A stretch of 62,209 bases of DNA, filler included, from Kipferlia bialata (Eukaryota): assembly GCA_003568945.1 (NCBI GenBank). It is 4 parts of 4 records of this genome, joined end to end, with 100 filler letters (N's around TTAATTAATTAA, not from the genome) between each part and the next. Parts side by side here need not be neighbours in the genome. Positions count along the whole stretch, not along the records: positions 48,727 to 62,209 come from BDIP01000516.1; 3 more parts are not named here. One strand, 5' to 3'. The notes under the pieces were generated by a model. It saw nothing but the letters and a program-made list of their open reading frames with translations. It was not told the origin of the DNA and did no database searches. The position numbers were made by a program, and so were the translations under genes. Shown here piece after piece: positions 17,799 to 61,530 of this stretch (position 1 is the stretch's first letter; each line of letters starts with the position of its first letter).

Positions 17799-17898
17799 NN
17801 NNNNNNNNNNNNNNNNNNNNNNNNNNNNNNNNNNNNNNNNNNTTAATTAATTAANNNNNNNNNNNNNNNNNNNNNNNNNNNNNNNNNNNNNNNNNNNN
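17799..17898. other. Artificial scaffold linker (N44-TTAATTAATTAA-N44)
   Basis: Six-frame stop linker inside Ns, identical to those at 35695 and 48627. Confidence 0.97.
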
Positions 17899-26500: not shown

Positions 26501-29500
26501 GGGGGAGGGCAGGCCAACTAGGCCATGGCCTGGGGGGTGAGACGGTACATAGAGGAGACCAAGTGACTAAAGGCAGACTCGGAAGTCGTTGTAGATCTAG
26601 TACGCCGTACCTGTCTGTGCGGCTGCGGCACTGAATGCATCCTCGGTACCCTGGGGGTGAGGGATATGCGTACTTACACACACTGCACAAAATAGATTTC
26701 ATAGTGTAGCATTGGCTTGAATACTACGTCAATAAGAATAAGGCCAGTACCTGCATGAGGGTCTCGTCCAGGTTGAGCGTCTCTGCCAGTGACCTTGTCA
26801 ATGACTCTCCCCTCTTGAGACTGAGGGTCAGGTACCCACCCAGGGAGTGCATGGATAGGTGGGAGAGGGAGTCAGACCTGTCCCTCCCACCCCTCCCTCT
26901 CTCCCTCTCTCTAGGCTCTGTATCACTAGGGCAGGACCCATCTGCTAGGGATGTGTGCAGAGGGGTACCATGAGAGACAGAGCCGTGTCTGGGCCTATCC
27001 ACCATGTGACTCAGGACCTCGAAGAGGGAGCCTGAGGGGTTGAGAGATAGTCAATACCAGAATATACTACAATACATATACACATATCCCATACCTGCAG
27101 CTCTCCCCAGTGCCAGTGCGTGTACATATACATTCCCACATATATATACATTCTATATGTACACTATCTATCCATTCCATACCTGCTGCCCTCCCCAGTG
27201 CCAGTGCGTGTATGGCCACTGTCATGGAGGCATATATACACATAGATACTATATATATCACCATATATATATACTATACATATGGAATCTATACCTGCCG
27301 CTCTCCCCAGTGCCAGTGCGTGTCTGGCCACTGTCATGGACGCATGGACAACACCAGAGGCAGAGAGGTTGGTACTAGTATGCACCCCCCTCTGTCTACC
27401 CAGACACACCAGACTCCAGTGTACAGAGGGTGTACTATCCTTGTACATATGCTCAGAGGATGTACTCTCACTACACTGTGCCGGGAGGGTTGGGATGGAC
27501 AGACACAGAATGTGGTGTCTAACCACCATACAAGACCTTCCATCCATACACAGCTCAGTGTCTATATGACCATGGCCCTGAGCATGGGTATCCATGCCTA
27601 TTGACGCAGAGGCGTCTGGGTAGACAGGGATCAGGTCAACCTGGTATCAGATACAGAGACAACTCTTCACGTACTGATCGAGAGACAGTGTCTCACCTTC
27701 CTCCCTACCCCCAGCACGGCTGATGGCCCCCCTCCCCCCTGCACTCTGTGTCTCTCAGTCCCATGCCTCTGCCCTATCAGCACCATACTGAGACACGACT
27801 CCACCACTACACCCCTGGATGCACATGCTATGGAGTGTAAGGTATCCACACCCACCCTGGGTACACACAGCACACCGTGCCCCTCTAACCTATCAGCAAC
27901 CCCTTGATGCACTGTACCACTACATAGCAGTATACAGGGGGGACCTAGGGATAGTATGGATTGCACCACCGTGTCACACGCCCTGGCCTCTGCACCAGAC
28001 TCCTTAGCATGTATCACATCAGACAGAGAGAGAGAGAGAGACGGGTACAGGCACAGGGGGGTCACATCCCCATCGACTAGTAGAATACAAGGGGCAGAGG
28101 GGTGGGGATCGGCATTGGCAGGGCCAGACGAGCCTCTCGTAGGGGTACGTGGCATACTACTTGGGGAGTGTGGGTATAGGGGACATGACACTGAGTTGGC
28201 AGGGTGGCACTCCAGTGCTATACCCTGCACTACGCGAGATAGAGGGTGGGGGGAGAGAGGACAAGGTGTGTCTGTTCCCTCCAACGTCTCAGCTTCTCTC
28301 TCCTCTGTATCCCCACAGTAGTACCCACCCAGTACGTGTATTCCGCTATCTGGGTTGGTATCAGCACCACTCCCTGCAGATAGTGGTAGTGCCACACACA
28401 CTGCCTCGACATACGCACTGATGAGTCTGGACCAGCCGTCTAGGGCAGAGTTCTCTCTCTCTCCTAGGAGAACCTCTCTCTCCCCCTCCATGCCTCTCAG
28501 AGCAAAGTGCATGTTCTGTAGGATGGTACAGGCAACCATCTGCCTGGCCTGGTGGGTAAGACTACATATATAGTACCAACACCACAGACTACCTGCAACA
28601 CACACTGGCAGTACTACATACCTGTCCTGGAAGTATACACATATTCATATTCATATACCACATGCTATAACTGGCATACCTGTCTGGCCAGTGGGTGGTC
28701 TGAGAGGATGGACGCATGGGCAGAGGGCTCTGCCATCCCCACACCACTAGTCTTCCCAGTAACACCCTTATCAGAGTAAGGGTCTGCCAAACTACGCTTG
28801 CTACCACTGCTCCTCCGTAAGGTAACTGACGGTGAATACACTGTAAAGGACAGGGTATCATCCATGGCATTCTCTCCCTCTTCTGTCTCTGAGCCACGAC
28901 CCTTCCTCCTGCCCCTCTTGTCTCTCTCCCTCTTAACCCTCTTGCTTCGGGTAAGGGCCGCCTCCAACCTCGACCAGTCCGCCTCCTCCTCCCTCTCCCT
29001 CTCTCCCTCTACACCCCTTCTCTCCCCCTCTATCCCCCTCATCATGGCCTCCAGAGAGGCAGGGGGTAAGTCTGAGCAGTACAGTGTCTGGGCAGCATGT
29101 GTAGGGATAGGGGGGAGGGGGCGTCGGTGGGCCTGCATACCCCTCTCCCTCTCCCTCTCTCTCTCACCATGTGGTGTCCCTCCCTCATACTCTATGGACA
29201 CAGACCCCTGGCCCCTCTCCACACGCACCCTCAGAGCTCTCTCTCCCCCTCTCCCCCTCTCTGCCACCTCCTGACCCAGCATGCAGGCAGAGACTATGCC
29301 CTGACTGCAGGTGGGACACGCAGTGAGGGTGACAGTGGAAGGTGGGGTGTCCGAGGGAGAGGGAGAGGTAGAGGGAGAGAGGAGGGTGCTGAGAGGGGCA
29401 CTCACTGTGAATGAGCAGGCCATGCACACAGGGCACCCGCAGACCTGAGAATCAATCATTAACTATCAAAGAGACATTGTAATATATATGTCACGTCATA

Positions 29501-30635: not shown

Positions 30636-31460
30636 ATGGGTTTTTGCTGCTCGGATGAGGCCACGAAGCAGGCCAAGAAGAGAAACTCGAAGGTCGAGAA
30701 GACTCTGAGGGCCAAGAATGCCTCTTTCGAGGAGGAGATCAGGATTCTCCTACTAGGTGAGGCCTATATGTTCCATTTTGTTGCCTAGTGCAGTTGCAGG
30801 GAGTATGTGCGTCTTGCCGAATCCGACCTTCTTCGTCTCTCACCCCTCAGGTGCCGGTGGCAGTGGCAAGTCCACCATCTTCAGGCAGATGAAGATCCTC
30901 CACAACAACGGCTTCTCCCACGAGGAGCGTCTGCGCTTCAGGCCCATCCTGAGGCAGAATGTGATGTCGTCCATCCTGGCTCTGATTGGGGCCTGTGCCC
31001 GGTTCAAGATCCACCTCGAGTCCCTGGAGCACAAGAAGCTGGCCGACAGGCTGCTGTCCATGTCCGCCACAGCCCCATACAGCCCACAGCTCGGCAAGGA
31101 GATCGCCACACTCTGGCAGGTAATGTCTAGTGGATGTGTCAGTGTGGGTTGCTAACGGTCAACTTCGTCTGTCGTGCTTATTCTCTCTCTCCCCATTGGT
31201 ATGGATGTCTATATGGTATATGTGTATACCACCCTACTCAAGTACAGCAGTGAGCTGTCTTGTTCTCCACATTCATTCAGGCCAATACCACTTTCTGCAC
31301 TCATATTCAGGTCTCACCTCTTTTGTATATGTGTCTATATTAGCCTCCATCAGTATCTGTTTCTCTGTATATATGTCCCTGACACTATCTATTCTTCTAT
31401 ATATGTCCCAGGACCCCCAGGACCAGGGCATCAAGGTCGTAATACATAACTTACTATTTA

Positions 31461-35694: not shown

Positions 35695-35794
35695 NNNNNN
35701 NNNNNNNNNNNNNNNNNNNNNNNNNNNNNNNNNNNNNNTTAATTAATTAANNNNNNNNNNNNNNNNNNNNNNNNNNNNNNNNNNNNNNNNNNNN
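35695..35794. other. Artificial scaffold linker
   Basis: N44-TTAATTAATTAA-N44. Confidence 0.97.
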
Positions 35795-41000: not shown

Positions 41001-44000
41001 GCACCCTGGCCTTCGATTGGGAGACCTGGGATGCTGCTGGGGTGAGTCCTATTGCATATTATTCTCTCTCTCTCTCTCTATTCCTCTAACCCCAGGTCCA
41101 GTTCTATTACGGCAAGCCTGGCTTCCTGCCGGTCAGGTTGATGGGGGGAACCGCTGTCGTCACCACCTTCGCTACCGCTGACGGCAAGGGCTCTGCCCAT
41201 GTCTTCACCCTCGACAGAGAGACAGACACATGGGCATACACACAGACACTCGTGCCGGACGTACTGGTCGAGGGCGAGGTCTTTGGGATTGTGCCCAGCA
41301 TAGACGTGTCGGAGGACAGGATCGCTGTCTCCACCTTCACTGCGAACACTGGGGTGCAGCCCGACACCGTCAATGCCGCATATGAGTTCGAGAGAGACCC
41401 TGACACTGGAGAGTGGCTGCAGGAGAGTATAGTGCCTGGGGTGACTAGTGGGTGGACTGACGACCACGGATATCTCTTCTTTGTGGCCATTGGCGGAGAC
41501 ACTGTTGTCATATCCTCTCAGAACGAGTATGTGAGGACTATCAGCGGAGTAGAGGAGCCCGAGTGTGACGGTTGTTGGGCGGAGCCCTTCGATGATGAGA
41601 TTTACGGTAGGACCCGCATCTACAGCCGTGTCCCTGGCACTGGATCCTCTAAGTACTCCTACAGCCTGGAGGTGGTCATTGAAGGTGAGGTTCCCAATCA
41701 TGTTTGTATCCCTATATACCTGGTTAGTACGCATCTTCACTCTATATCGTTGAGTTGTTCATCTCTTGACAAGTCTGTTGTGTAATTCTCACGTCCAGGA
41801 CATAACAATGGGGGAGACTCGTCTGGGCAGCAGAACATTGTGACTCAGGACTACGTTGCCGTCATGGACTCCGGCTACACCCGCGACCCCAAGTGGGGCG
41901 AGGACTCTGTTGAGAACAGTGGCCAGATTGAGGTGTATCGCCATGACTCTTCTGGGTCTGGGTGGACGCTAGATGCGACACTAGTACCAACTGCCGACGC
42001 AGACTTGTTGGGGTGGGGGCAGAGCTTTGCTGTCAATGGTGTGACAGGAGACTACGAGCTCACCACACTAGACTTCTACTTTGGAGAAGAAGGCTACCCG
42101 ATGATAAGCATGATCACCATCCTGCCGGTCCCTGCCCCTCTCCAGATGGTGTCCTGCCCCACGTCCATCGCAGAGGGCTCCAATGACATCACCGTGTCTG
42201 TCGTGGATGCCGATGGGTCCCCCCTCTCTGACCTGGCCGTCACTCTACTTGTCACAGAGACAGAGGCAGGCGTCGAGACCGCCACGACCCACACCCTCAC
42301 TGCCACCGAGACTGCCGGTACCTACTCCGTGCAGGGCGTCACGGTCAGAGACGTGGACACGTCAGCCTCTATCACTGCGTCTCTGGGTGGCACTGTCGCG
42401 GCCACTGTGTCACACTTCACAGTGAGCAGCGACGACCCTGTAACCGCCACTAGGATACTCGGTGTCACCTTTGCCTCTACCACCATCACCAGTGCTACCA
42501 TTGACCCCATCCTCCTTGCTGCAGGCACCGTCCACTTCGACGTCCTTAATGGTAGAGACGCCAGCATGCCCGGCCTTACGGGTGTCTCCATTACTCTCCC
42601 TGGGGGCACTGCTGCCGATGCTGTATGGGACGAGGATGCAGAATACTACACAGCCACTCTCGTGGGGAGCATTGCCCTTGGGGATCACACGGCCTCCATC
42701 ACCGTGGCCGACCCTGACTTTGCCTCTGCCTCCTTCACTGCCCCCTGCCACGTGTATGGCACTCTCGCATCTGTTGCCGTGTCTCCCACAACCGGAGGCA
42801 CTCTGGCCGCCGGAGCAGGTATCGATATCTCGATCTCTCTCCTCGATCCCAGTGGAGCCACTCTCCCTTCGATGGAAGACTACACCTGTTACGTCTCAGC
42901 CATAGCCGATGCTGGCGTTGACCACATCAACAGTGGGTACGGCACCCCGGTGTTTGCAGAGTGGGACGTGACTGACAGCGTGTACACTGTGACCTCCACG
43001 CCTGTCTCTATCGATGGTGAAGCTGTGGATGTTCTGGCCCAGTGTCTTGTCGTAGGCAGTGAGACCCTCGACTCTGCCTCTGCCTCTATCCCTGTTACTG
43101 TGACTCCCGAGGTCATCAGTGCACAGGACTGTGTTGTGTCCCTTACCACCAATGACTCGGCTGTTGAATGGTCAGAGGAGTCTGTGGCTGCCGGCGATGG
43201 CTTTGTCGTGAGTGTGGCCCTACACGATACCTACATGAACGACCTTTCCTCTGGAGAGGTCTCGGTTAGTATCACTCTCGGGGATACCACGGTGCTTCCT
43301 CTGCCGGTCACCTTCAACAGTGACCTTACGGTCTTTGAGGCTTCCTCTCTGTCTTCCTTTGACACACTGGCCCAGGCAGTCTCTGTGTCAGTGACCGCAG
43401 ATACACTCGACCTTGGCACCTACTCGTTCGGCATCACTGCGAACCCTACCCCTGACGCCTCACAGTCCATCCAGACAATACCTACCGAGGCAGCCGCAGG
43501 GGCCGACATCAGTGTGAGCTGGGTGCCCAAGGACCAGTTCGGTAACCTCATTACCCAGTACGAGTCTGTGACCTGTGCCTTTGTGAGAGAGTCGGCCACC
43601 CGTGGCACTCTCGATCTCTCCACCAGCTCTGACCCTGACGAGTACATCGGCAGTGCCATCCCTGCCACCACTGTTGCTGGGGCATCAATCCCAGTGTTCT
43701 TGGTGGGTCGCATTGGCACCTCCCTGTACTCAGAGGAGCACTCAATCACAATCACAGCTGGTGCCGCCGACACGTGGTCTGTGGGCGAGTCCGCAGTGCT
43801 CAAGGTCGGTGTCGAGGCAGCAGTCACTGCCTCTGTCACCGACCAGTACGGCAATCTGCTGACAGATACCTCCAACCCGCTCAAGGTCAACCTAAGCGAC
43901 AGTGAGGGGTCGGCCACCACATGCACATACCCAGTCGACCACTGGGTGTGTGCCGTTACGTACAGTGAGAGCGACCCTCAGGCTGTGGCCACCCTCTACG

Positions 44001-47000
44001 GCTGGCAGAACTCCCAAGCTATCGGCAGCTACACGGTGCGTGTGGTTGGGGACGCCCCCGACGCGTCAGCTTCCACTGTAACCCCCGACTCCGCAGTTAT
44101 GGGTGCCACAGTATTGGCCTCTGTGCAGCTTGAGGCGGCGAGTGGCATGCTGGTTGTGTACGAGCCAGACCACCCGACGGTAACCCTAGCCTGGGAGGGC
44201 GACACTGCGTCTGTGGAGGGTGTTTACTCTTCCACCTCCAAGATGTGGCTAGCCAGCCTCACCGCCCCTACTGACGCCGCATCGTCACAGAACCTTGAGG
44301 TCAGCGTCAACGGCGCTCTCTTCAAGAGCCACCCAGTCACTATGGAGGATCGTACTCCATCTGCTGCAGAGTCGGTGGTCTCTCCTGCACTCTGTGTTGT
44401 GTCAGAGAGCCAGGGCTTCAGCATCAACCTCTCCAACGCAGGTGGCGTCACAATCATTGATACTGCCCTCACAGTCACTCTCAAGTGGAGTGACAGTGAC
44501 GCTGTGTACACTGCCGGTCTCAGCACTGACTCCGGCGCCTATTCGTCTATCATACTGGCGTCAGACGTCGAGGGCGCACGTGAGCTAGAGGTGTACGTCG
44601 ACGGCACCCTCTTCCTCACTCACACTGTGACCCAGTACCAACCCCCTGAGGCTGCCGTAGGAGAGGCCGTAGAGGTGTCTGGGAAGGACGCCGACAGTGG
44701 GTATGGAGACGTGGTGGTCATGGGGGACGGATGGACAATCATCTCTGCCCCACTCAATGGGGAAGACGACACTGGTACTGTCTACATCATGAAGAAGGCC
44801 GGTGGCTCCTGGAGTGAGTTTGCGGCGCTTGAGCCCCAGACCACTGCCACTGACGGCCACTACGGCCATGCCATGTGCCTATCCTCTGAGGATGGTGGCG
44901 ACACCATTCTCTATGTCGGGCAGCCTGGCCGAGAAGCTGTGGATGTGTGGCAGTTCAACCCATCTGTGTACCAGTGGGAGGCTAAGGGTAGCCTGCAGGC
45001 GACTAACGGCTACTTCGGTGACGGCTTTGGGTCCATCCTGGCCTGTAACTCAGACAGAGTGCTTGTGGGTGCTCCATACTCGTACAATCTCCTTGTGCCC
45101 AACACCGGCAGTGCCTACGTGTTTGCCAAGGACAGCGGTACCGGCGCATACACCCAGGAGGCTAGGTTTGAGTCTGCCACGCCCGAGGAGAACGCCATGT
45201 TCGGGTCTGGACTTGGCTTGGCCGGAGACATGGCCGCAGCCACCACCGGTGGAGACGCCACTGTCGCTGGAGTGACTGTCGTGCTACAGTACGACGCCGG
45301 CCTCGCCAGGTGGGAGACTGCCTCCGAGATCCCCTACGGTGGGGGGGACATTGTGCTCGACACTGAGCTCCTCGGTGTCGCTGACCCAGACCTGGACGGA
45401 GGGTTTGGCATCTATACCGCCGCTACAGGCTGGGGCGCCCTCTCTTCCCCTCCCGCCACGTCCTCCGGGAAGATGATGGGGGTCAAGGAGTCTGAGACTG
45501 ACGCAGTGTCTCTAGCTCTGGGTGGTGGTACCCTAGTAGTGGCCAAGACCAACAACAGCGAGGGAACCGGTACCCTCACAGTCTTCACAAAGAACGCGGA
45601 CACTGGCGGCTTCGTTGAGGGTGCTCCCATTGAGGTGGCTGGCACCCCCGAGACGGTGGCTGTCGACGAGAGCGGCAACCTGCTGGTGGGCAAGAGTGGC
45701 AGCGATAGCGCTGGCACCGAGGTCACAGCCTTCAACCTCGCCTCCCCCACTGCCCTTGTGCTCGTGGACTCCCCAGACACCTATGAGCAGGGTACCGCAG
45801 GTGTAGCTGTGAAGTACTACTTCCTCGACGCCCAGTCTGCCTCCATCGCCATCAGTGAGGGAGACTGGGTGACAATGTCTGTGGCAGACGGCGCTGCGGT
45901 GACAGGTGCAGTCAGTGCCGCAAAGGAGTACTACACGTCCCTCATCGACATCCCGGAGAGCGTAGGCCGTACTGCTCTGGAGGTAGACACTGGTAACGGT
46001 GTCCTGCCTGGTGCCATCTTGGTCGCCGCTGGGCCTCCAGATGCCACAGAGTCGACTCTCACAGCTGGGTCCGCAGTTGCTGGTGTGTCTGCGGACTTCT
46101 CCGTCACACTTAAGTCCTCGTATGGCGATGTTGTGTATGCTGCACATGACGTCACTGTGACCTGGACCTATGACACCCCTGCTGGTACCCGTACATCTGT
46201 GTCGGGTACTGGCACTATCAACGACACCACAGGGGTATATACAGTCAGCCTCACAGCTGGTCCGGTTGCCAAGGCCACTAGTGTAGAGGTCTTTGTGGAC
46301 ACTGTGTCTCTCTTTACAGACACAACTGTTTCCATTGTACACGCCGCCCCAGACGCTAGTGAGTCCTCTATCAGTGTCGCTGACTCTGCCACCCTAAAGG
46401 TCGGTGACACTGCAGCTGTCACGGCGTCACTCCTCGATGAGTTCACCAACGTGTGCGACACGGCGGACACCGTCACCATCAAGTTCGACGGCATCGACTA
46501 CCCCGCTGTATGGCAGCCCTCCTCCCAGACATACACAGCCTCCTGCCTAGTACTGCGTGCTGGATCCCAGACTGTGTCTGTGTACACTGGCACTACCTTG
46601 GTCAAGTCTACCTCTGTGACACCTGCTGCTGTTATGGTGCCTGACGCCTCGACATCTGAGATCACCGTTGCTGGAACTGTGGTTGCTGACAACACGGCTT
46701 CTTTCTCCGTGGTTCTCAAGGAGTCCGGGGGCACTACCATCCTTGATGAGCACACTGTGACACTCAAGTGGACGTACGCACTCAACCATGGGGATCCGGC
46801 TACAACTATAGTCACTAGTCCCACTATCTTTAACAGCTCTACCGGTGTGTACACTTGCTCTCTGCAGGCCGGTTTTGTCGCAGGGTCTTACACTCTTGAG
46901 GCCGTTGTGGACTCTGTTTCTCTGGTCTCTAGGTCTGTGACCATCGTGGCCGACTCCCCTATGCCCGATATGTGCACACTTGCTGTGGCGGGCAGTGACT

Positions 47001-47749
47001 CCCTGATGGTGGGTGACACTGCTGTCGTCTCTGCCTCCCTGCAGGATATCTACGGCAACACATGTGATAACGCAAACGCGGTATCTGTCACCTTCGATGG
47101 AACAGTCTACCCAGCAGAGTGGGAGAGTGCCTCACAGACCTACACTGCATCCTGCACTCTAGTGTCTGAGGGTACCAAGACTGTCTCTGTGTCTTCTGGT
47201 GGCTCTGAGATCAAGTCAATCTCTGTTAGGGTGGCTGTCGCACCTACGGTTCCCGTGGACCCCGAGGCTCCCAACGACTTCCCCTGGCCCCTTGTGATAG
47301 GTGTGACCTGTCTGGCTGTGGTGGGTGTGGTTGGCATCTGCTGGTGTGTGAGAGGCAAGGCTGAGACTGTGTCGGAGACTCAGGCTGTGAGTCTGAAGGA
47401 GAAGGACTTCCCGCCTCTATTCTTCCCAACTGAGACTGAGGGGGCAGCACCTACGCCCTCAAATGCCGACGATGGCTTGCCTGAGTACTCGAGTCAGTGT
47501 GACGATGGTGAGGATAAGCCCCTGGCCGTGAGGGTGCAGGAGGACTGGCATGTAGTGGTTCCGGTGCCGGTGATTGTGATGCCAGTTGCAGATGCAGAGC
47601 TGCAGCCAGAGCCAACAGAGGGTGGAAACGGGGAGGGTGAGCAGGAGGGTGGCGATGCTTGTGGTGAGGGTGTTGGTGAGGAGCCTGCCCCCTGTACCCT
47701 TCTCAGTGCTAACCACCCCGTGTCTGTGGCTGTGCCTGATCTCTCTTAG
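38023..47749 (+). CDS. Giant type-I membrane adhesin-like protein: FG-GAP/integrin-alpha-like propeller repeats, many Ig-like (filamin/invasin-type) repeats, C-terminal TM and acidic tail
   Basis: FG-GAP-type motifs (FGTSLGL..TAPG..GAVYVY; FGSILAC..VLVGAPY..GSAYVF), repeated PDAS.S starts and D.YGN motifs, and TM WPLVIGVTCLAVVGVVGICWCV. About eight short exons are followed by a single exon at 41799-47749. The N-terminus is missing. Confidence 0.9.
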
Positions 47750-48626: not shown

Positions 48627-48726
48627 NNNNNNNNNNNNNNNNNNNNNNNNNNNNNNNNNNNNNNNNNNNNTTAATTAATTAANNNNNNNNNNNNNNNNNN
48701 NNNNNNNNNNNNNNNNNNNNNNNNNN
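48627..48726. other. Artificial scaffold linker
   Basis: N44-TTAATTAATTAA-N44. Confidence 0.97.
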
Positions 48727-48779
<53 letters not shown>

Positions 48780-48790
48780 ACCCCCCCTAC

Positions 48791-50638
48791 CTCCTCCTGA
48801 TCCAGGACTGCACGTATGCACTCCAGCCGACATCAGTCTGGTTGATGAACAGAATACCTGGGTGAGATCAAACACACTGGAAAGACAGTTAGATATTGTG
48901 CAGCACATTAATTACCCATATATTCCGACATGTACTTCTATTATTACTATATATAACACTATATATATGTATGCATACCTGCTCTGGACACTGTGGCTGG
49001 GGAGGCATGGGTCAGCTGGCCAACCTCAAACAGAAGCCTGGGGTAAGACACACATATGTATATGAGGACATATCTAGATAGACATCAGGTAGAGAGACAG
49101 ATTGAAGTATTCGAAGAGTTAGATAGAGAGAGAGAGAGAGAGAGAGACTACCTCATGTGGGGGTGCAGAGGCACACGCTCGTTAGAGGCCAGGGTGAGCA
49201 TCTTGTTATCGTCCATAACAGTGTTGAGGGACTCAATCCAGATGGTGTCGACATCTCCGTCAAGCACAATCCACCTGGGGTGAGACAAAGTGGGACAATG
49301 AAGATAAGCACACATATATATCATATTTAGGCATCTCGTCCCACCCACACATATGAATATATGTCCACATATATGTCCATATATATATATAAATATATAT
49401 ACACATAAAAATACTCACTTTGGCTCCGTGTTGGCTATGTTGGACAGGGTACGCATGGTGTTGGAGAAGAGACCATCCTTCCACTCACCTAGAGGTGAGA
49501 GGAGAGAGAGAGATAGAGAGAGAGTATGAATGCGAGTGGTGATGAACGTGTTTCAAACACCAGATCAGGCAACGATGCGAGACCAGAAAGTATGATAAGA
49601 CAGTACTGGGTGGCAGATTGACGTACGTGTGGCGGGCATGATGTATCCATAGAGCTCCTTGGTAGTCACAGCCTGGGGTAAGGAGGGTACACCGGGTGAC
49701 TGCTATACATAGAGAGGAGTATGCGTAAGTGCACCGGAATAAATGTGAGAATACTAATAGTGTCATACCACAGCGATGACGACTGGAGGTGCATACATAT
49801 TTGACTACATATTGATACATAAATATACATACATACCTTGGGGTTGATGACTGGGTGCAGGATCTTCCTGCCCATGTCCTGGTAGGTCTTGGCAAGCATC
49901 TTCCAGCACTGATGTTAGACACATAGACATAAGAGAAAGAGAGAGAGTGACTACGCCACTCACTATAAATGCACACACCTGTGTCTTTCCGACTCCTGCG
50001 TCTCCGAGGATGAACACAGAGTGCCTGACCTCCAGCAGCTCCTCCAGCTGCACAACCTTCAGGATGAAGGAGTCCTCAGCCTGATAGTCAGAGGAATGTA
50101 CATTTATATCTACAGAGACTACAACCTTCAGGATGAACGAGTCCTCGGCCTGGGTGAGATAGAGATACAGAGAGAGAGAGAGAGAATAGAGGATGAGGGA
50201 TGAACGAGNNNNNNNNNNNATACAGAGAGAGAGAGAGAGAATAGAGGATGAGGGATGAACGAGTCCTCGGCCTGGGTGAGATAGAGATACAGAGAGAGAG
50301 AGTGTGTGTGTGTGTGAGAGAGTACCCACCTGCAGCCCCGACTCCACGGTCACCCTCTTGATCGTGGCCTCCAGGTCCTCGTTGACCAGACGTGGCACAT
50401 CCACACCTGGGAACAGATCACCAATCAGACCGAGGAAAATCTCCAAATCATCGAGCACAATCTGAGGGGTTAGAAGGGTATCCCAGACGGCAATTGAGTG
50501 CATGAACAGAACAGAATGACTGTCGGGACTGTGGGTTGCTGGGGTTACCTTGGGGATGTTGAAATCTCGGAGGGCGCGACACAGCACCTCCTCCTCCTTC
50601 TTCTTGATATCCTCAAGCTCGGCGGCGGTAAACGACAT
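48791..50638 (-). CDS. Axonemal outer-arm (beta-type, DNAH9/11/17-like) dynein heavy chain piece starting just before AAA2; 3'-truncated by the scaffold end
   Basis: [110 protein letters not shown] and [20 protein letters not shown]. Confidence 0.95.
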
Positions 50639-50964
50639 ACTGGGTGTAAGGAGGGGATTAGAGTAACATACAAGCCTAACAATGCCTGATAATGACCACA
50701 CGAGCCTAAAAACACTGCTATACAGATAGAAACACTAATACGAAAAGGTATACTCGTATTTCAACAAAACTACCCCAAAGAAGCCATAATACGATCTTCC
50801 AAACTCAACTACACCAAATACCACGCACTTTGTCGCCTATTCCGCAGACTTTGGCTGAATAGTTGGCAGGTTGGTTGTGGTCGATTTTTGAGTCTGCTAA
50901 ACCCTTTCATATTGCAACAACACCCTTTTTCGCAAAAAGAGAGAGTGCCGAGTTGTCTGTCAAC

Positions 50965-53900
50965 ATGCCAAGAGCTTTTCTAATCAGTGTCGGGTCTCAG
51001 GGAGACTGCACCTCTAGAGCCAGGCTCATACACGTGGAGTCTGGACCTAGGACGAGGTGCCATGGGATGGTGGTCCCCCCTGTGTTCAGTCCCCGGACAC
51101 AGGTAGCTCTGTCAGTGTATATGTATATCACTGAGCTGTCTCTCTCTTGCTTGTGCATTTGCTAGTCCCTCACCCTCACTGTCAGGCCAGTCTAAATGGC
51201 GTGTCTGCCATCCTAGCAGGGGCACATGCCAAACAGAGGGAGAAGGAGAGGGAGAGAGAGAGGCTGAAGGAGCAGGTATTGTATATATATAGAGTGTCTT
51301 GCAATAATGACTCTCTGCCTCTCTCTCCTTTGTGTTGTGGCAGTGCACCGTATCTATAACTCCCCAAGGACCAGACAGACGTCATCATATGTATCAATAC
51401 CACTAATTCTCTCCTGTGAATGTGTCAATCTGATCATGGCTCTCATCTCTGTCTGTTTACTCTCTCTCCACTCTCTTTATGTCCCATCTCACTCCCTTTG
51501 ATGCCATATATACTGTGTTTACGAAATGCACTCGGGTCCAATACACTCAGGCTCTGTATTTCACATTAGTTTGTCGTACTCTCATTGTCTATCTAGTCAT
51601 ATGTCATACTATCTGTATAGATCTCTGAACAGACTTGGAGTTTGCTGGACTTGTCTTACATAGTGTATGTGTGTTGTGTATATCTCTCGATATACATCTG
51701 ATGCCAGGCCAGACGGAGTGATGAGGTGGAGAGTAGTATTCTTTGATGCTCATACATATTGTGACCATAATGCATATACATGATGTATGTCTGTTACTGA
51801 CTGTGCAGGCCAGACTGAGAGTGATGAGACGGAGGACAAGGGAGAGGGAGGCGGAGAGAGAGAGAGAGAGACGGACCCCAGCTGTGGAGGATGTGGCCAT
51901 GGTTGCATTTGAGAGGTCAATCAAGGTACCATGCAGTGTGTATATATATATATATGTATATATATATGAATATATATACATATTAATACATATATAAACA
52001 TATATGTGGCCATGGATGCATTTGAGAGGTCAATCAAGGTACCATGCAGTATATATTTATTTAGTGTATAAATGCTATATCTACACACAATATTATACCC
52101 ATCATGTCGGAGTCTTTATCATCCAATTGGTGTATCTATGTATAAGTCTCTCACAATAGGCAGCAATGGAGGCTGTCAGACTGAGTATGGCCAGAGGAGG
52201 GGAGGGAGAGGCTGAGGGACCAGATACTCAGCTAGAGATGGAGGGAGAGGTGAGAGAAAGAGAGAGAGATAGAAAGAGGGAGAGAGCCAAGGAGGTGGAT
52301 GCTATCCTGTCCTGGGGCGCCAAGGACTCTCTCTCTCTCCCCATCCCTCAACAGAGATCAGTACATATGGATGAGAGGGAGAGGAGAGAGAAGCCATCGA
52401 GGAACACTAGACCGAGGTATATAGTGGATATGTCTCTGTAAACGTGGTCGAAGCATCACTGTGGGTATTCTGTAAATATTGATATTTGGTCATTATTGAT
52501 AGATTACTGTCAGGTATTTGTGGCCCTTTAATCTGAGGCTGGACTACATTCCTCTCTTACATTAGGATATTGACCCCGGGGGAGAGACAGATGGAGAGAG
52601 AGATACAGGACAAGAGAGACACTATAGCAGAGAAGTGCTACAGGTATTGTTTCAGTCACACTCTGGGTATTGTAGTATAGTGGTAAATTATGCATATCTC
52701 TCTGTATACCCTTAGCAGAGAAGTGCCACAGGTAATATTCGCAATCTGTATATATCCCCCCAGTCTCTCTACCCATGTTTCCCCTTTCTGATTCTCTCTC
52801 CCTCTCTCCCCCTAGACCCTTTACGCCAGGATAGTTGAAGAGATGAGTGGCACAGATGTCTCTATCTCTCTCTCTCTCTCCCTAGACCCTTTACCCCAGG
52901 ATAGTTGAGGAGATGATTGAGACAGAGGCCAACTACAACAGGACACTGGGCAGATTGATCAGTCACATGTCAAGTAGTGAGGGGGAGGGGGAGGGGAGAG
53001 AGCAGGGTGCTACTACTGAGGGAAGGGAGAGAGAGAGTGCTAACCTCCTGGATGTTGTCACACCACTCAAGGTATATGTACCTCTCTCTCTCTCTCGCGC
53101 GCGCGCTCTCTCCCTCTCTCTCTCTAGACCCTTACTGTCAGATTCAGTCAGACCTATTCCTTGAGTCCATGCCTGCCTGTGTCAGAGACCTCTCCACCCC
53201 TGACCTGGGCACATGCATAGGGGGGGTGTTGATAGGTATGGTGTTGTATATAGCATTTCTGTTTATGTATAATGATATATGGGGTCCATCTATCTCTTTA
53301 TCAATACGTGCAATGATACATTCGTATAATGTTATACTGTCCACCCCTGACCTGGGCACATGCATAGGGGGGGTCTTGATAGGTGTGGTGGTCTTTTAGT
53401 GCTCTTTGTCCTATCTAGTTGTTACCAATTTCACCACTCTCGCTCATCTCCTCCTCACTCTGGTTAGCCTTAATATATAAATATCAGGTTTCTCTCCATA
53501 TGTATTCTCGTTGTGTATTCTTCTATTCGTGTCTCACTCTCCAGGCCAGCGTGGTCCCCTTGTCAGTGCATACACTGCATACACTGTGTCATACTCAGAC
53601 ATCAAGGCATACTTAGAGAGGAGGTATGATGATAGTTCTATATCAATATATATATATATATATATACTATTGCTCTGTCATATGCAGACATCAAGGCTTA
53701 CCTGCAGAGGAGGTGGGTAGATCAATTTGTGTATGTAAATATCTCAACCCTGCTCAACTCATCACAGATCCCACACCTCACACTTATCCACAGTATAGCT
53801 AAGCCTGCCTCTCTGTATCTCCACTCCATCCTTTCTCATCCTCAGGGTCACTCAGCGTGTGGACTCCATCCTGATAGCACCCATACAGGTATATTGTATA

Positions 53901-54187
53901 TACATTACATTATTATAAGGAATACAGTATAGTATGTCAGGATATGACCAGTCAGGTGAGAACTCACTGTGCTTCACACCATACCAGTAGTTTCCAGTAT
54001 ATGTAGTATTTATTAGTGTACATGAGTGACTGGTATCACTATTCAGTGAGAGGCCTACAATAGCAGCATTTGAGCGATAATGGGGTAAGTTCAGGAGTAT
54101 TATATATTCAGTTTCTTTGTGAGAGCATGGGTATATCATATGTTTGTACTCACCCAAGTGCAGTCACACGCAGAGCTAGGTAACATA

Positions 54188-54223
<36 letters not shown>

Positions 54224-57174
54224 CTATACATATGTTTCTATGGGTATATGTTTGTACTCACCCTTAGCGACTGCCAAGGGTGAGACTACTACTGAGAGAA
54301 CTGGCCAGAGAGAGGGACAAGGATATTACCCTGGCAGAGAGTATCAGTAAGGGTGCAGTACCACGAGAGGGAGGGAGAGAGAGAGATAAGGACATTGCAC
54401 TGGCAGAGAGTACCACTAGTATCGATAAGGGTGCAGTGTCTGTCGGCAGTCAAGAGAGAGAGTTAGAGAGAGAGAGAGACCTTCTGTCCCGTGCCATGCA
54501 GTGTGTGGATGGGGTGGTGCATGCCATGGACAAGACACAGCGGATACAGGTACATGCATATATATATGTATTTAAGTATAGTATACTATTAGGTGTGTAT
54601 ATATATCTGAGGATACAGGTGTATAGTATATGTATATTATACACTAAGATGTGTTTCTCTTTCCCATTAGGTGTATATACATTGATACCATATACGTTGT
54701 ATTTCAGTTCCCGCCTGTCCGAACCTGACCCAAAGTATTGTATTTACTGTTGTTTTTTACTAACTTCTAGGACAACTCTCTCCGCCTGTCCCACCTTGTC
54801 TCTGTCCTATCTGGCGAGGGGGATGGACACTCTCTCTCCCCCTCTGCACCCTTAATCACCAACATGAGGAGACAGCTGTATTTGACAGAGATTGCGTCTT
54901 GCGAGGTATGTATATTATGTCCATTCACCCTGGAATACACTATACACTCATTTTCCCGCCATTCTCAGCCCCAGGTGTCCCATGTCGAGATGCATACGTC
55001 AACACATATATGTGTATATCCATTATATTAATCTACAGATACATACTTTCCCAGATACATCAGCCTCTATTTATATGTGCCTATACTTACCTATAGCTAT
55101 ATTCTCACTCCCCAGGTGTCCCATGTCGAGATGTACCTGTCTAGCGGCATGTCCTATGTCACAGAGGCAGAGGAGGAGAGAGAGAATAGGGGTGCAGAGG
55201 GGGAGAGAGAGCCTCTGGAAAGTGAGAATGAGTCCCAGCTCTATTTGGTCAAGGTGTGTGTCTCTCTCTTGTAAATATTCTCTCTCTCTCTCTCTCTACC
55301 CTCCCGCCTCTCACTCCAGAACAAACACGACAGGGTTGTTCCACCAGTGTACAAGACAAGGTATAGGGATATGTGTGTATATATTATGGGATGGGACTGA
55401 TGGTATATGTGTATGTATATATATATATATGTATGACAGGGTTGTTCCACCAGTGTACAAGGCCAGGTACAGGGATATATGTATATATATATTAAGATGG
55501 GATGGGACTGATGGTATATGTATGTATATATATATGTATATGTATGACAGGGTTGTTCCAGTGTACAAAGCAAGGTACAGGGATATATATACATTGAGAC
55601 ATAGTGATGTGTGCATGATTCTTCACCTATATTATAATTGTATGAGAGTGTATGTATGAGTGTACATATATGATGATGAGCCGTATGCTTCTGTTCTATG
55701 AATGACACATATGTAAATACACACACATATATATCTATACATACAAATATGTATATATCGTTACCTTGTGCCCTGACGCCTTGTGCTCTGATATGTCAGT
55801 GTGTATACTATACTCTATGACTATAATGCTCTTTCCTCACTCTTTAGGCGCCTTGTCCTGCTGTCCTTACAGTAATATATAGTTTTATACACGCGTATAT
55901 TTATCGTATCTTTATCCTCACTCTTTAGGCGCCTTGTCCTGCTGTCCGAGTCTGTGCTAGTAGTCAAGGATGACACAGAGGGGATGAGACTCAAGGTATA
56001 GACTATATCTATCTATCTATATATATTTACATATGATTGTATCCTTCCCTGTTCATCCCAGGCCGTGTATCCACTCAAGGGCATGACGCTGGTCACATCT
56101 AACACACTCCAGAGAGAGAGAGAAGGAGAGGGAGAGAGAGAGGGAGAGACAGAAGAGGGGGCTGACGATGGCTGTCGCGTGCAGTTCCTCTTGCCCCTTA
56201 CCCCATCCTCTAATCCAATGACACCAATGTCTAATCCAATGACACCTGACGGACGTGATGCTATCAGTGGAGTGAAGGGGGAGAGAGTGGGGAGTGGCTT
56301 GAAGAGAGAGTCTTCTGTAAAGGGGCTGAGGGAGAGGTGGAGAGACTCTAGGGGGAGAGAGAGAGGGTCTATGGCCTGGAGTGCAGGGGACAGAGAGGGG
56401 GAGATGCTAGTGACAATGAAGTTTAGCACAAAGGTATGCTGATGGACCTCGCTCTCTCTCTCTCTCTCTCTCCGTCTACCCCCTCATTCTCAGGATGTTT
56501 GTGCTGATTGGACCAACCAGGTCAGACAGGCCAAGATCACTGCGAATAGAAGGTACTTACAGTATCACACTGTATATATATATACCCATATATACTTGTG
56601 TGTATAGGTGGGTATGTTCAATATGTGTAATATGAGTACTGAGTTTGCCTCCTCTAGTTCAAGCCCCACTCCCCCTCTCTCTCCCCTATTTCTCTGGCCT
56701 CTGTCTGACTATATAGATAATACAGTATCTCGATATCTACCATACCTTCATGTCCCCTTGGTCCCAGCATGGACATACTATTAGTATTCATACAGAGTAT
56801 ATATATATGCCTTACCCCTACTATTTATACTATGGGTGTGTCATACCTTCATGTCCCCTTGGTCCCAGCATGGACATACTATTCGTATAGTATATATATA
56901 TACATATCCCCTACTCTATGTTCAATACATGTGTGTACAATATGTATTTACCTTACCCCAGGTCCCAGCGTCAGTCCAGGGACAGCATGCAATATATATA
57001 CTGTATTTACTATGGATTACATACATCCAGTGTCTATGCCATATGCACTGGTTTGTACCTAACTATCCAATTCCTAACCCCAGGTCCCAGCGTCAGTCCA
57101 GGGGCAGCATGCGCCTTAGACCGCTGGTGCTCCCAGACTCACCCATAGGGGGCACAAGTCAATACCTCCTGTGA
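50965..57174 (+). CDS. Dbl-family RhoGEF (DH-PH), multi-exon
   Basis: DH CR1 IVEEMIETEANYNRTL, AYTAY, CR3 SILIAPIQ|RLPRVRLLLREL, then PH-like RRLVLLSESVLVVK and DWTNQVRQA. Stop at 57174. Confidence 0.85.
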
Positions 57175-59702: not shown

Positions 59703-59999
59703 TCACTCACTCGCTTCTCCACCAGCCTCATCCGCGACGATACTGTCGTATATCTTGGTCTTGATAATGTCCATAGACACCTTGATGTCTGCGCATTGCT
59801 GTTGTACACACCGCATATTGTCAGTGATCGAGGCAATGCTATCCGACATCGCCCTGACCTCGGTTGTCAAGGTCGGCATACTCGGCTCCATGGTGTCCAA
59901 GTCCCTCTTAATCTCCTCACTCAGGGAATACAGGGCCTGCAATTCCTTGAGGATGCTCTCCTGGACTGCGTGGTTGTTTGTGGGAACTGTCTCTGACAT
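59703..59999 (-). CDS. Small coiled-coil orphan protein, paralog A
   Basis: MSETVPTNNHAVQESILKEL..., heptad-like. Preceded by a 5'-UTR intron. Confidence 0.55.
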   Translation of the reverse strand: MSETVPTNNHAVQESILKELQALYSLSEEIKRDLDTMEPSMPTLTTEVRAMSDSIASITDNMRCVQQQCADIKVSMDIIKTKIYDSIVADEAGGEASE

Positions 60000-60899
60000 G
60001 TGGCTTGAATGAGTTATATGCATGTATATATATATATATAGATAGACAGAGAGAATTACGTACCTGAGGCTGGTTAACTGACAACGTTGGAGAATAGTAG
60101 TAGAGAGACACATACCCCATCCAACCCTTTCTACAAATTGAACAAAAACCGGATTGTCGGAGAAGGTGAAAAGGGTCTATCCGATAGACCGTCGGAGAGG
60201 GAGAGACATCCGCACCAAGGGTCGCAGCAGAGACCTGGAATCAAAAATATATGTATGTGTCAATTGATATATACATAGAGAGGGAGAGTGATCATCTCTG
60301 CTCCAGAGACTCGGCACCAGGGTATAAGACACTGAGGGTGGTGAGATAGAGGGAGACACTGCAACCTGTGAAGAGAGTCTGAACCCATAAATAGCAACAG
60401 GATGAGTGTATGGGAGCTCTCCTTGGCTAAAGAAACGACGCTTATCTGAGATGAGAGACTAAAAGGGTGAAAAGGAAGAGGGAGAGAGAGTGAGAGAGGC
60501 AGGGATGACAGTGTCATCCTTGGGAGGCTGGGCGGGACACAAAGAGAGGGGGGAATTCTAGTTACACGAGTGTTACGCCACTATTACCGGTGGCGTCATA
60601 GACCAGGTTCGGAGGGAAAGAGAGGGAGAGGGAGGGAGAGAAAATATGGACTCCCTCAATGATGAAGCAGAATTATCAGAGGCACATCGGGGTGCATCAC
60701 TATGTATTAGACCAAGCAATAAGAACCTCTCTCATAACACGACCCACTGACTCATTACACAACACGCACTTAAGCAATCTATTCGAAGACATGACTCAGC
60801 CCTCAACCCCCCCCCCTTACCAACCTCTCCTGAGCAGAGTATCCTCCACCACACTCACTCTCTTATCCATACCCCTCACCCTCGATGCCAGTATCGAGC

Positions 60900-61175
60900 T
60901 CAGGCTTTCTTAGCCAGGAGCTCTTGGATCGTGTCCATCCTGGACTCCAGAGCGGCTATGATCTCTGCAGGGGTGCTAGTCTTCCCAACAAGCCCCAGGA
61001 CAGTGTCGTTGGATGGTATCCGTGCTGAGGTGCCTGCCTCCAGTGTGTCCGCCCTTATACTCAATGACTCTTTCTTGGCTGAAATGAGGGCCGTCAAGGC
61101 ATGTAGGTGAAGGTCGATGTCCCTCAAGATTCTCTCCATGACAGCCCGGTTGTCTGTAGATACTGTCTCTGCCAT
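60900..61175 (-). CDS. Small coiled-coil orphan protein, paralog B
   Basis: MAETVSTDNRAVMERILRDI... has an N-terminus similar to paralog A, and the flanking DNA is homologous. Confidence 0.55.
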   Translation of the reverse strand: MAETVSTDNRAVMERILRDIDLHLHALTALISAKKESLSIRADTLEAGTSARIPSNDTVLGLVGKTSTPAEIIAALESRMDTIQELLAKKA

Positions 61176-61530
61176 GTGTCTTGAATGAGATGTATGGTTT
61201 ACATTGTAAACATTCATATATATGCATACATATATGGAGGTCTGCCCGCTCCTCGCTTGCTGCCTCTGCCGTGTGCCTTGAAATTCAAGGCTTGAATGTA
61301 TATATAGATAGATGTGCTCATACATATAGATGGGAAGATGTCTACCTGAGGTGGATAGCTGTTAACGTGGAGAGGTTCAACACAGAGACACCACTCAACC
61401 CTTTCTACAAGTAGAACAAAAACCGGATTTCTGTCGGAGAAGGTGAAAAGGGTCTATCGAGGGAGAGATAGAGGTTGTCCTCAAAAATGGTTGTGCCGCC
61501 TTCCACTCTAAGGCTTAACAATCGTGGTTA

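What the first reader, a model, noticed from the sequence alone, without database searches (positions are those of the whole stretch)
50540..50965. Outer-arm dynein heavy chain that starts in mid-motor: candidate split or trans-spliced gene
Seen: dynein homology begins at [16 protein letters not shown], preceded by a non-homologous [14 protein letters not shown] with ATG at 50638, 1 nt after a CTAAT..CCCAG acceptor. A RhoGEF starts on the other strand 326 bp upstream, and I find no dynein exon in the remaining 11.5 kb. Established: this motif normally lies about 2000 residues into the chain, after the tail, linker and AAA1 core. In Giardia the outer-arm beta chain gene is fragmented, trans-spliced and predicted to be made as two polypeptides. 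Inference: this is a separately translated C-terminal half (with a 5'-UTR intron) or a trans-splice acceptor. If the breakpoint matches Giardia's, the fission predates diplomonad genome reduction.
Basis: partly seen in the sequence, partly recalled or inferred. Interest (0 to 1): 0.85.

Follow-up and report, generated by a model that had tools for sequence, protein, structure and literature searches.

The report
Split flagellar dynein older than Giardia
In Kipferlia, a free-living relative of Giardia, the gene for the rear half of a flagellar motor protein begins at the same mid-motor point, with the same new starting peptide, as in Giardia and Hexamita, so the motor was likely already built from two separate chains before that lineage shrank its genomes.

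Summary
Confirmed and extended. Nine GT-AG exons (50638-48791, minus strand) give an open 253-residue frame identical to a Kipferlia bialata dynein record. It starts inside AAA1, with no front-half exon in the window. One DNA contig spans the start without differences. The 318 other stored dyneins score at most 4 against it, hexamitids 36-44. With that peptide excluded, the window is sister to diplomonads (95/82). Barthelona, from the sister group of fornicates, has an unbroken chain of this class. Best reading: the separately translated rear chain of outer-arm dynein beta, cut in a loop of the AAA1 small subdomain, behind a likely 5'-UTR intron. The fission would predate the Kipferlia-diplomonad divergence. 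Not shown: the front-half gene, the mRNA 5' end, and the rest of the rear chain, which is lost at a contig end. The split is known in Giardia and Spironucleus; I found no report of it in Kipferlia.

The parts
50640..50828 (-). Likely 5'-UTR intron, 189 nt, GTGCGT donor at 50828 to the acceptor at 50640; removes two short out-of-frame ATG frames (50787, 50669)
   Evidence: Donor is the one used by the annotated model P0256; length within 70-249 nt of the eight internal introns; no RNA shown; nine other donor-like sites lie in 50640-51100
50640..50650 (-). Branch site and acceptor CTTAC-ACC-CAG, one base before the ATG
   Evidence: Motif in 8 of 8 internal acceptors, 2.9% of AGs; only match upstream on this strand
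50597..50638 (-). Start codon and new 14-residue N-terminal extension [14 protein letters not shown], shared with diplomonad rear chains
   Evidence: 7-8 of 14 identities to hexamitid N-termini; at most score 4 in 318 other chains; predicted to run on as one helix into the ancestral helix, low pLDDT
50549..50638 (-). Coding exon 1 (residues 1-30): extension plus the AAA1 small-subdomain helix [16 protein letters not shown]
   Evidence: Pfam AAA_6 match starts at profile position 230 of 327
50330..50461 (-). Exon 2 (rest of AAA1 small subdomain)
49979..50080 (-). Exon 3, with the AAA2 P-loop GDAGVGKT (residues 100-107)
49837..49908 (-). Exon 4 (AAA2)
49627..49672 (-). Exon 5 (AAA2)
49419..49488 (-). 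Exon 6 (AAA2)
49152..49274 (-). Exon 7 (AAA2, WIVLDGD motif)
48979..49037 (-). Exon 8, with TVSRAG (residues 227-232); its arginine is, by recall, the AAA2 arginine finger for the AAA1 site
   Evidence: that AAA2L supplies the finger: PMC4879348
48791..48857 (-). Exon 9, last dynein exon held; ends in a GT donor, the intron runs into a TC repeat and the contig end
48627..48726 (.). 100-base spacer (44 N, TTAATTAATTAA, 44 N) joining separate contigs; the gene is cut here by the assembly
   Evidence: same spacer at 17799 and 35695
50829..50964 (.). Likely shared divergent promoter and untranslated leader between dynein and RhoGEF
   Evidence: inference from head-to-head layout; inside one DNA contig 50330-51929 with no differences
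50965..54360 (+). Divergent RhoGEF (DH-domain) gene, spliced in run X2; bounds the dynein gene upstream (3' end not mapped)
   Evidence: RNA contigs with GT..AG joints from 50991 on; open DH-like frame; weak Pfam hit

Best explanation
This is the first nine exons of a gene for the rear part of the outer-arm dynein beta (DHC4) heavy chain of Kipferlia bialata, starting inside AAA1 at the same site as in Giardia and Hexamita, and it is likely translated from its own ATG as a separate chain that would assemble with a front chain from another, not yet found, gene. Shown: exon structure, open frame, start position, homologous new N-terminus, tree position, intact chain in Barthelona. Inferred mechanism: a short promoter shared with the RhoGEF gene drives a transcript whose leader holds a 189-nt intron; after splicing, ATG 50638 would be the first AUG if transcription starts below 50910. 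The cut lies in the five-residue loop between two helices of the AAA1 small subdomain. The front chain would keep tail, linker, AAA1 Walker A/B, sensor I and the sensor-II helix; the rear chain brings the last AAA1S helices, AAA2 with the arginine finger, and (by the 2536-2565-residue diplomonad orthologues) AAA3-6, stalk and C-terminal domain. The two chains would re-form the AAA1S helical bundle, the new N-terminal residues lengthening the first helix and probably adding contact surface, so the main ATPase site is built across two polypeptides. One fission, in a free-living intron-rich fornicate ancestor, explains all five lineages; Giardia's trans-spliced breaks in the rear part came later.
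For: Clean 9-exon model, all GT-AG, 253 residues, 66-68% identical to Hexamita and Giardia rear chains, which rank first among stored proteins for Giardia. Identical to residues 10-262 of the Kipferlia record P0256. Initiator-position Met in register: P0257 same position, Hexamita one before, Giardia and G. muris two after. Extension scores 36-44 against 7 hexamitid rows, 11-15 against 7 Giardia rows, at most 4 against 318 others. Clade with diplomonads with the extension left out: 95/82, 99. One 1641-nt DNA contig covers 50330-51929 without differences. No front-half exon in the window, positive control passed. Break in loop 213-217 of a modelled intact chain, local pLDDT 70-88. Giardia front and rear parts are translated independently and Spironucleus has the rear part as one exon (PMC5100056). 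Barthelona P0380 runs unbroken through the site.
Against: The front-half gene was not found: of 150 representatives, 135 carry the sensor-II motif, 134 run on through the loop and one (P0453) is nearest SAR-type chains; no fornicate front half was among them. A consensus acceptor one base before the ATG is also what a trans-splice site would look like. The annotated model puts nine more residues in front (MSLALEATN), through a first intron whose acceptor misses the consensus and an exon antisense to the RhoGEF's first exon. The DNA run may be the source of the assembly, so it is not independent. The helix prediction for the extension is low-confidence (pLDDT 34-61). Barthelona's chain does not group with the split clade (backbone unresolved), so it is the same class but not shown to be the same paralogue. 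The first tree warns of long branches.
Confidence: 0.86

Rival explanations
1. The acceptor at 50640 is a trans-splice site: a front-half pre-mRNA from another locus is joined here in phase 2, giving one full-length chain with a 14-residue insert in the AAA1S loop.
For: Consensus acceptor one base before the coding start; Giardia trans-splices two other breaks of this same gene; no RNA seen for the 5' end.
Against: The Met is kept in register in hexamitids and Giardia, which have almost no introns; Giardia's front part is reported as translated apart; a fitting cis donor lies 189 nt upstream and the annotated model uses it; a transcriptome screen found no trans-splicing in Spironucleus.
Confidence: 0.07
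2. A duplicated or decaying fragment: an intact full-length DHC4 exists elsewhere in Kipferlia and this copy is unused or a dominant short isoform.
For: No whole genome was held, so an intact copy was not excluded; only 253 residues are seen.
Against: Open frame over nine exons with canonical splice sites; short end branch (0.21-0.24) sister to diplomonads; the start matches the known functional diplomonad chain; the N-terminal profile search returned only this Kipferlia record among its best 120.
Confidence: 0.04
3. Assembly artefact or very long cis intron: the front exons lie beyond the contig and were cut off or misjoined.
For: Draft assembly with 11,564 scaffolds and many genes broken at scaffold edges (PMC5874029); the same gene is cut at its other end.
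Against: One contig spans the start and the RhoGEF's first exons with no differences; an expressed gene fills the upstream region on the other strand; introns here are 70-249 nt; an artefact would not create a diplomonad-type N-terminus.
Confidence: 0.02
4. Independent fissions at the same loop in Kipferlia and diplomonads.
For: The loop is a natural cut point; Wallemia DHC1 is split within AAA1 independently.
Against: 7-8 of 14 identical residues in a peptide absent from 318 other chains point to one origin.
Confidence: 0.01

Closest known systems
Giardia outer-arm dynein beta (GilDHC4; rear polypeptide BAJ33527.1, 2565 aa, P0252; G. muris P0003)
   Same: Same class, 68% identity over 246-248 residues, start two residues apart, related new N-terminus; front part translated apart in Giardia.
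   Different: Giardia's rear part is itself three trans-spliced genes; here it is an ordinary cis-spliced gene with eight introns in the first 253 codons, in a free-living, intron-rich, earlier-branching fornicate. Whether Kipferlia also has the later breaks cannot be seen (contig end).
Hexamita inflata outer-arm dynein beta (CAL6039825.1, 2536 aa, P0125) and Spironucleus SsaDHC4_2
   Same: Rear chain as one open frame from the same site to the C-terminal domain; N-terminus 7 of 14 identical; an unnamed hexamitid-like ENA protein (P0257) starts in the same register with 8 of 14.
   Different: No introns expected there; Spironucleus has a duplicated front gene. The Spironucleus sequence itself was not retrieved.
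Split cytoplasmic dyneins of basidiomycetes (Ustilago in AAA4, Agaricomycetes before the motor, Wallemia within AAA1)
   Same: Heavy chain made as two polypeptides from two genes (PMC5100056).
   Different: Class DHC1, independent events; exact Wallemia break not compared.
Intact DHC4 / DNAH9-11-17 chains, including Barthelona sp. PAP020 (P0380)
   Same: Same motor sequence and fold from EEEVL on.
   Different: Continuous through HYDWGLR..AG..RR-loop-EE; no Met and no extension at this site.

Membership tests
Outer-arm dynein heavy chain, class DHC4 (beta type; DNAH9/11/17) | Motor sequence closest to DHC4 chains | tested here: met
   Best solved-chain hits DNAH17 and DNAH9; inside the DHC4 group against other classes as outgroup
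Outer-arm dynein heavy chain, class DHC4 (beta type; DNAH9/11/17) | Complete motor AAA2-AAA6, stalk, C-terminal domain | not testable with these tools
   Gene cut by contig end after residue 253; no genome held
Diplomonad two-chain outer-arm dynein beta (rear chain) | Starts at a Met just before the [10 protein letters not shown] helix of AAA1S | tested here: met
Diplomonad two-chain outer-arm dynein beta (rear chain) | New N-terminal extension homologous to diplomonads' | tested here: met
   scores 36-44 and 11-15 against at most 4 in 318 others
Diplomonad two-chain outer-arm dynein beta (rear chain) | Orthology to the diplomonad chains on the motor sequence alone | tested here: met
   95/82 careful tree; 99 in two quick trees
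Diplomonad two-chain outer-arm dynein beta (rear chain) | No front-half exons in cis upstream | tested here: met
   HMM and tblastn negative over the window with positive control; about 4.2 kb of the contig lie beyond the window if it is the 17,693-base contig of P0256
Diplomonad two-chain outer-arm dynein beta (rear chain) | Separate front-half gene that ends in a stop after the sensor-II helix | tested here: inconclusive
   Not among 150 representatives; list crowded by intact chains
Diplomonad two-chain outer-arm dynein beta (rear chain) | Own mRNA 5' end and own N-terminal peptide | tested here: inconclusive
   No contig of this transcript was laid; contigs cannot show a start
Giardia-type trans-spliced (split) intron at this site | Acceptor half with no cis donor | tested here: not met
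   Ten donor-like sites within 460 nt upstream; GTGCGT at 50828 used by the annotated model
Giardia-type trans-spliced (split) intron at this site | Base-pairing to a donor half at the front-half locus, and junction-spanning reads | not testable with these tools
   Front-half locus unknown; no raw RNA reads offered

The most novel reading that the evidence does not exclude
Kipferlia still joins the two halves at the RNA level at this acceptor, always or as an alternative to starting at the ATG. It would then be a living intermediate between a broken intron and a two-protein dynein, and the first trans-spliced intron seen in a fornicate outside Giardia.
Probability: 0.07. Interest if true: 0.85.

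Novelty: new member of a known kind. Interest (0 to 1): 0.55.

Why it matters
It dates a striking gene fission. The two-chain outer-arm dynein was described from genome-reduced diplomonads; finding the same cut and the same new N-terminus in an intron-rich free-living fornicate means it likely arose before genome reduction, intron loss and Giardia's trans-splicing, and likely after the split from barthelonids. It is a rare shared character that can be scored across Carpediemonas-like organisms. For motor biology it marks an exact, long-tolerated cut site inside the main ATPase unit, where linker and Walker motifs sit on one chain and the arginine finger, ring and stalk on another, and it names a conserved short helix as the candidate joint.

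Tried and rejected
RNA support: run X2 (RNA by guess) holds the spliced RhoGEF, but no contig of this dynein's transcript was laid in two tries; a filter can drop records, so this is no evidence either way. X2 held 0.22 of the sampled words of 48730-51500, near the 0.23 expected from dynein plus RhoGEF exons and above the 0.05 from RhoGEF exons 1-2 alone; a hint only, not counted. The one record laid (7687 nt, 90-95% alike) is a paralogue. Front-half search with a bird DNAH17 fragment over 1.84 billion representatives: none from a fornicate. VLC in place of VLM as a fornicate marker: rejected; the metagenome scan gave 4 loci (L001-L004), all with the front-side motif upstream and none with the new N-terminus. 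No Carpediemonas, Aduncisulcus, Trepomonas, Spironucleus, Trichomonas or Monocercomonoides DHC4 was named in any best-120 list, so the split is not placed within early fornicates. The annotated extra N-terminus MSLALEATN: judged a gene-model artefact. Fission at an ancestral intron position: not supported; an intron-like boundary before RGD in 12 stored fragments lies about seven codons from the Kipferlia acceptor. The protein atlas did not answer. No complex was predicted, as no fornicate front chain was in hand. Earlier scan notes: nothing on this genome or these words; one intact Naegleria dynein by sequence, not used.
Full report
Observation. On the minus strand the frame from ATG 50638 reads [30 protein letters not shown], one base after an AG at 50640. 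From EEEVL on it matches outer-arm heavy chains about 2050 residues in (DNAH17, DNAH9 best). Nine exons (50638-50549, 50461-50330, 50080-49979, 49908-49837, 49672-49627, 49488-49419, 49274-49152, 49037-48979, 48857-48791), all joined by GT-AG introns of 70-249 nt, give an open frame of 253 residues: the end of AAA1 and most of AAA2. Exon 9 ends in a donor and the intron runs into a 100-base spacer of N and TTAATTAATTAA that also stands at 17799 and 35695, so the window is joined from separate contigs and the gene is cut by the assembly. No whole genome was held.

Is the start real? In DNA run X1 one 1641-nt contig covers 50330-51929 with no other letters or gaps; X1 may be the source of the assembly. 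An HMM from the 727 residues before the break in 60 intact chains finds nothing better than E 0.52 in six frames of the window; the matching rear-side HMM finds all seven dynein pieces. Upstream lies a spliced, opposite-strand DH-domain gene. The acceptor fits a motif found in 8 of 8 internal acceptors and 257 of 8784 AGs, and is the only match on that strand in 50640-51100.

Organism. A profile of the N-terminal 75 residues returned, third of 1591 hits, a 263-residue Kipferlia bialata 'dynein heavy chain' (GIQ81853.1, contig 17,693 bases). Its residues 10-262 equal my model; its first nine come from two small upstream exons, the first antisense to the RhoGEF's RNA-covered first exon and followed by an intron without a consensus acceptor, the second ending at a GTGCGT donor 189 nt before the acceptor. 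I read the second intron as a likely real 5'-UTR intron and the extra residues as a gene-model artefact; this is inference. Kipferlia is a free-living, early-branching fornicate with 124,912 introns; the genome paper's main text does not mention dynein (PMC5874029, passages).

Same break as diplomonads. Giardia muris (P0003) begins [23 protein letters not shown], Giardia intestinalis (P0005, and the 2565-residue chain P0252) [23 protein letters not shown], Hexamita inflata (P0125, 2536 residues, AAA1 end to C-terminal domain) MTNLTSAQLEEIKKEEERVICRALRD, and an unnamed ENA protein (P0257) MNLTSAQLEEIKKEEEKVICRALRD. Scored without gaps against the window's first 14 residues, of 333 stored proteins with the motif, 7 hexamitid-type rows score 36-44 (7-8 identities), 7 Giardia rows 11-15, one is the Kipferlia record, and the other 318 score at most 4. 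With the extension removed, the window is sister to the four diplomonad rows at 95/82 in a careful tree of 43 rows (long-branch warning given) and at 99 in two quick trees (50 rows; 30 rows and 1126 columns, window 21% filled). Rows were my picks from the hits, not all hits.

What is known. Kollmar 2016 (PMC5100056; passages; supplement passages) states that Giardia DHC4 is in four genes, the three rear ones trans-spliced and the front part translated independently (citing Roy et al. 2012), that Spironucleus has the rear part as one exon and a duplicated front gene, and that basidiomycete DHC1 was split several times, in Wallemia within AAA1. That paper labels DHC4 'OAD alpha'; the records say 'beta'. 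I could not read Roy 2012 or the Kamikawa 2011 commentary, so whether they discuss the N-terminus is unknown to me. Passages also read: PMC10711314, PMC6679479, PMC3916229, PMC7641422, PMC5224939, bioRxiv 2021.03.14.435266 (72), PMC6759080, PMC3510501. Searches showed no report of the split in Kipferlia; of the six papers holding both Kipferlia and dynein I opened four. Subscription papers and unread supplements could hold it.

How old. Among 150 representatives found with a front-side query, one is Barthelona sp. PAP020 (P0380, 3616 residues), unbroken at the site. Barthelona forms the sister lineage to Fornicata with Skoliomonas (PMC13087550, start of abstract only). Its chain falls in the DHC4 group but not beside the split clade; the backbone is unresolved. 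So the fission is older than the Kipferlia-diplomonad divergence (well supported) and probably younger than the barthelonid divergence (weaker). No other fornicate was sampled.

Mechanism. In a model of an intact chain (P0022) the sensor-II-bearing stretch LRAIKSVLVVAGSLRRG is helix 196-212, DRDRP a loop, and EDQVL..TPK helix 218-233, at local pLDDT 70-88; the rear chain starts at this loop. [quoted passage not shown] Assigning sensor II to the GLR arginine and the finger to TVSRAG is recalled family knowledge. The front chain would thus hold linker, Walker motifs and both sensors, the rear chain the finger, ring and stalk, joined through the AAA1S bundle. In the model of P0256 the extension continues into the ancestral helix as one helix (14-34), but at pLDDT 34-61, as expected without its partner; the fold search returns axonemal dynein motors. 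That the extension is a docking helix is a guess resting on its conservation.

Against and open. The front gene was not found: 135 of 150 representatives carry the sensor-II motif, 134 run on past the loop, and P0453, which diverges there, is nearest SAR-type chains. No transcript of this gene was laid. The acceptor next to the ATG leaves trans-splicing open at about 7%; the conserved Met in nearly intron-free relatives and a usable cis donor argue against it.

Verdict. Real; the Kipferlia orthologue of the diplomonad rear chain, most likely a separately translated polypeptide. New member of a known kind, with a new date and a conserved new N-terminus. Interest 0.55.

Noticed in passing
window 17799-17898, 35695-35794, 48627-48726: Identical 100-base spacers (44 N, TTAATTAATTAA, 44 N): the window is four joined contigs, so neighbours across them mean nothing.
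   Followed up: yes
window 41786-47749 +: Uninterrupted 1987-residue frame in an intron-rich genome, with FG-GAP and Ig-like repeats and a C-terminal hydrophobic stretch; the gene seems to extend upstream to about 37900. A large surface protein, possibly of bacterial-adhesin style.
   Followed up: partly
window 30757-31152 +: G-protein alpha subunit exon (Pfam E 1.7e-20).
   Followed up: partly
window 27670-28644 - and nearby long frames 24079-29462: Long, intron-poor minus-strand frames; weak TCP-1/cpn60 match (E 0.003), perhaps a Fab1/PIKfyve-like or BBS chaperonin-like gene (recalled, untested).
   Followed up: no
window 50088-50280: The dynein's second intron holds two or three partial copies of the start of exon 3 (..GAGGACTCGTTCATCC..) around an 11-N gap; decoy acceptors or a local assembly repeat.
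   Followed up: no
run X2, record laid at window 49190-49240 and 49836-49853: A 7687-nt contig of a paralogous dynein heavy chain, 90-95% alike over short stretches; it begins about 200 nt before the equivalent of this ATG, probably a contig break at a conserved motif rather than a second split.
   Followed up: no
stored proteins P0267, P0276, P0311, P0314, P0315, P0332, P0335 and others: 12 fragments begin to match at RGD in the same loop after unrelated sequence, often Q-R-G-D, suggesting an intron at this loop in other (probably animal) genes, about seven codons from the Kipferlia acceptor.
   Followed up: partly
L001 1880-1918, L004 1154-1192: Intact outer-arm dyneins with in-frame TAA/TAG at glutamine positions (ciliate-type code) from metagenomes.
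   Followed up: partly
window 59706-60176 - and 60903-61361 -: Two similar coiled-coil-like frames beginning ..SHMSETVPTNN.. and ..RHMAETVSTDN.., a tandem pair of unknown family.
   Followed up: no
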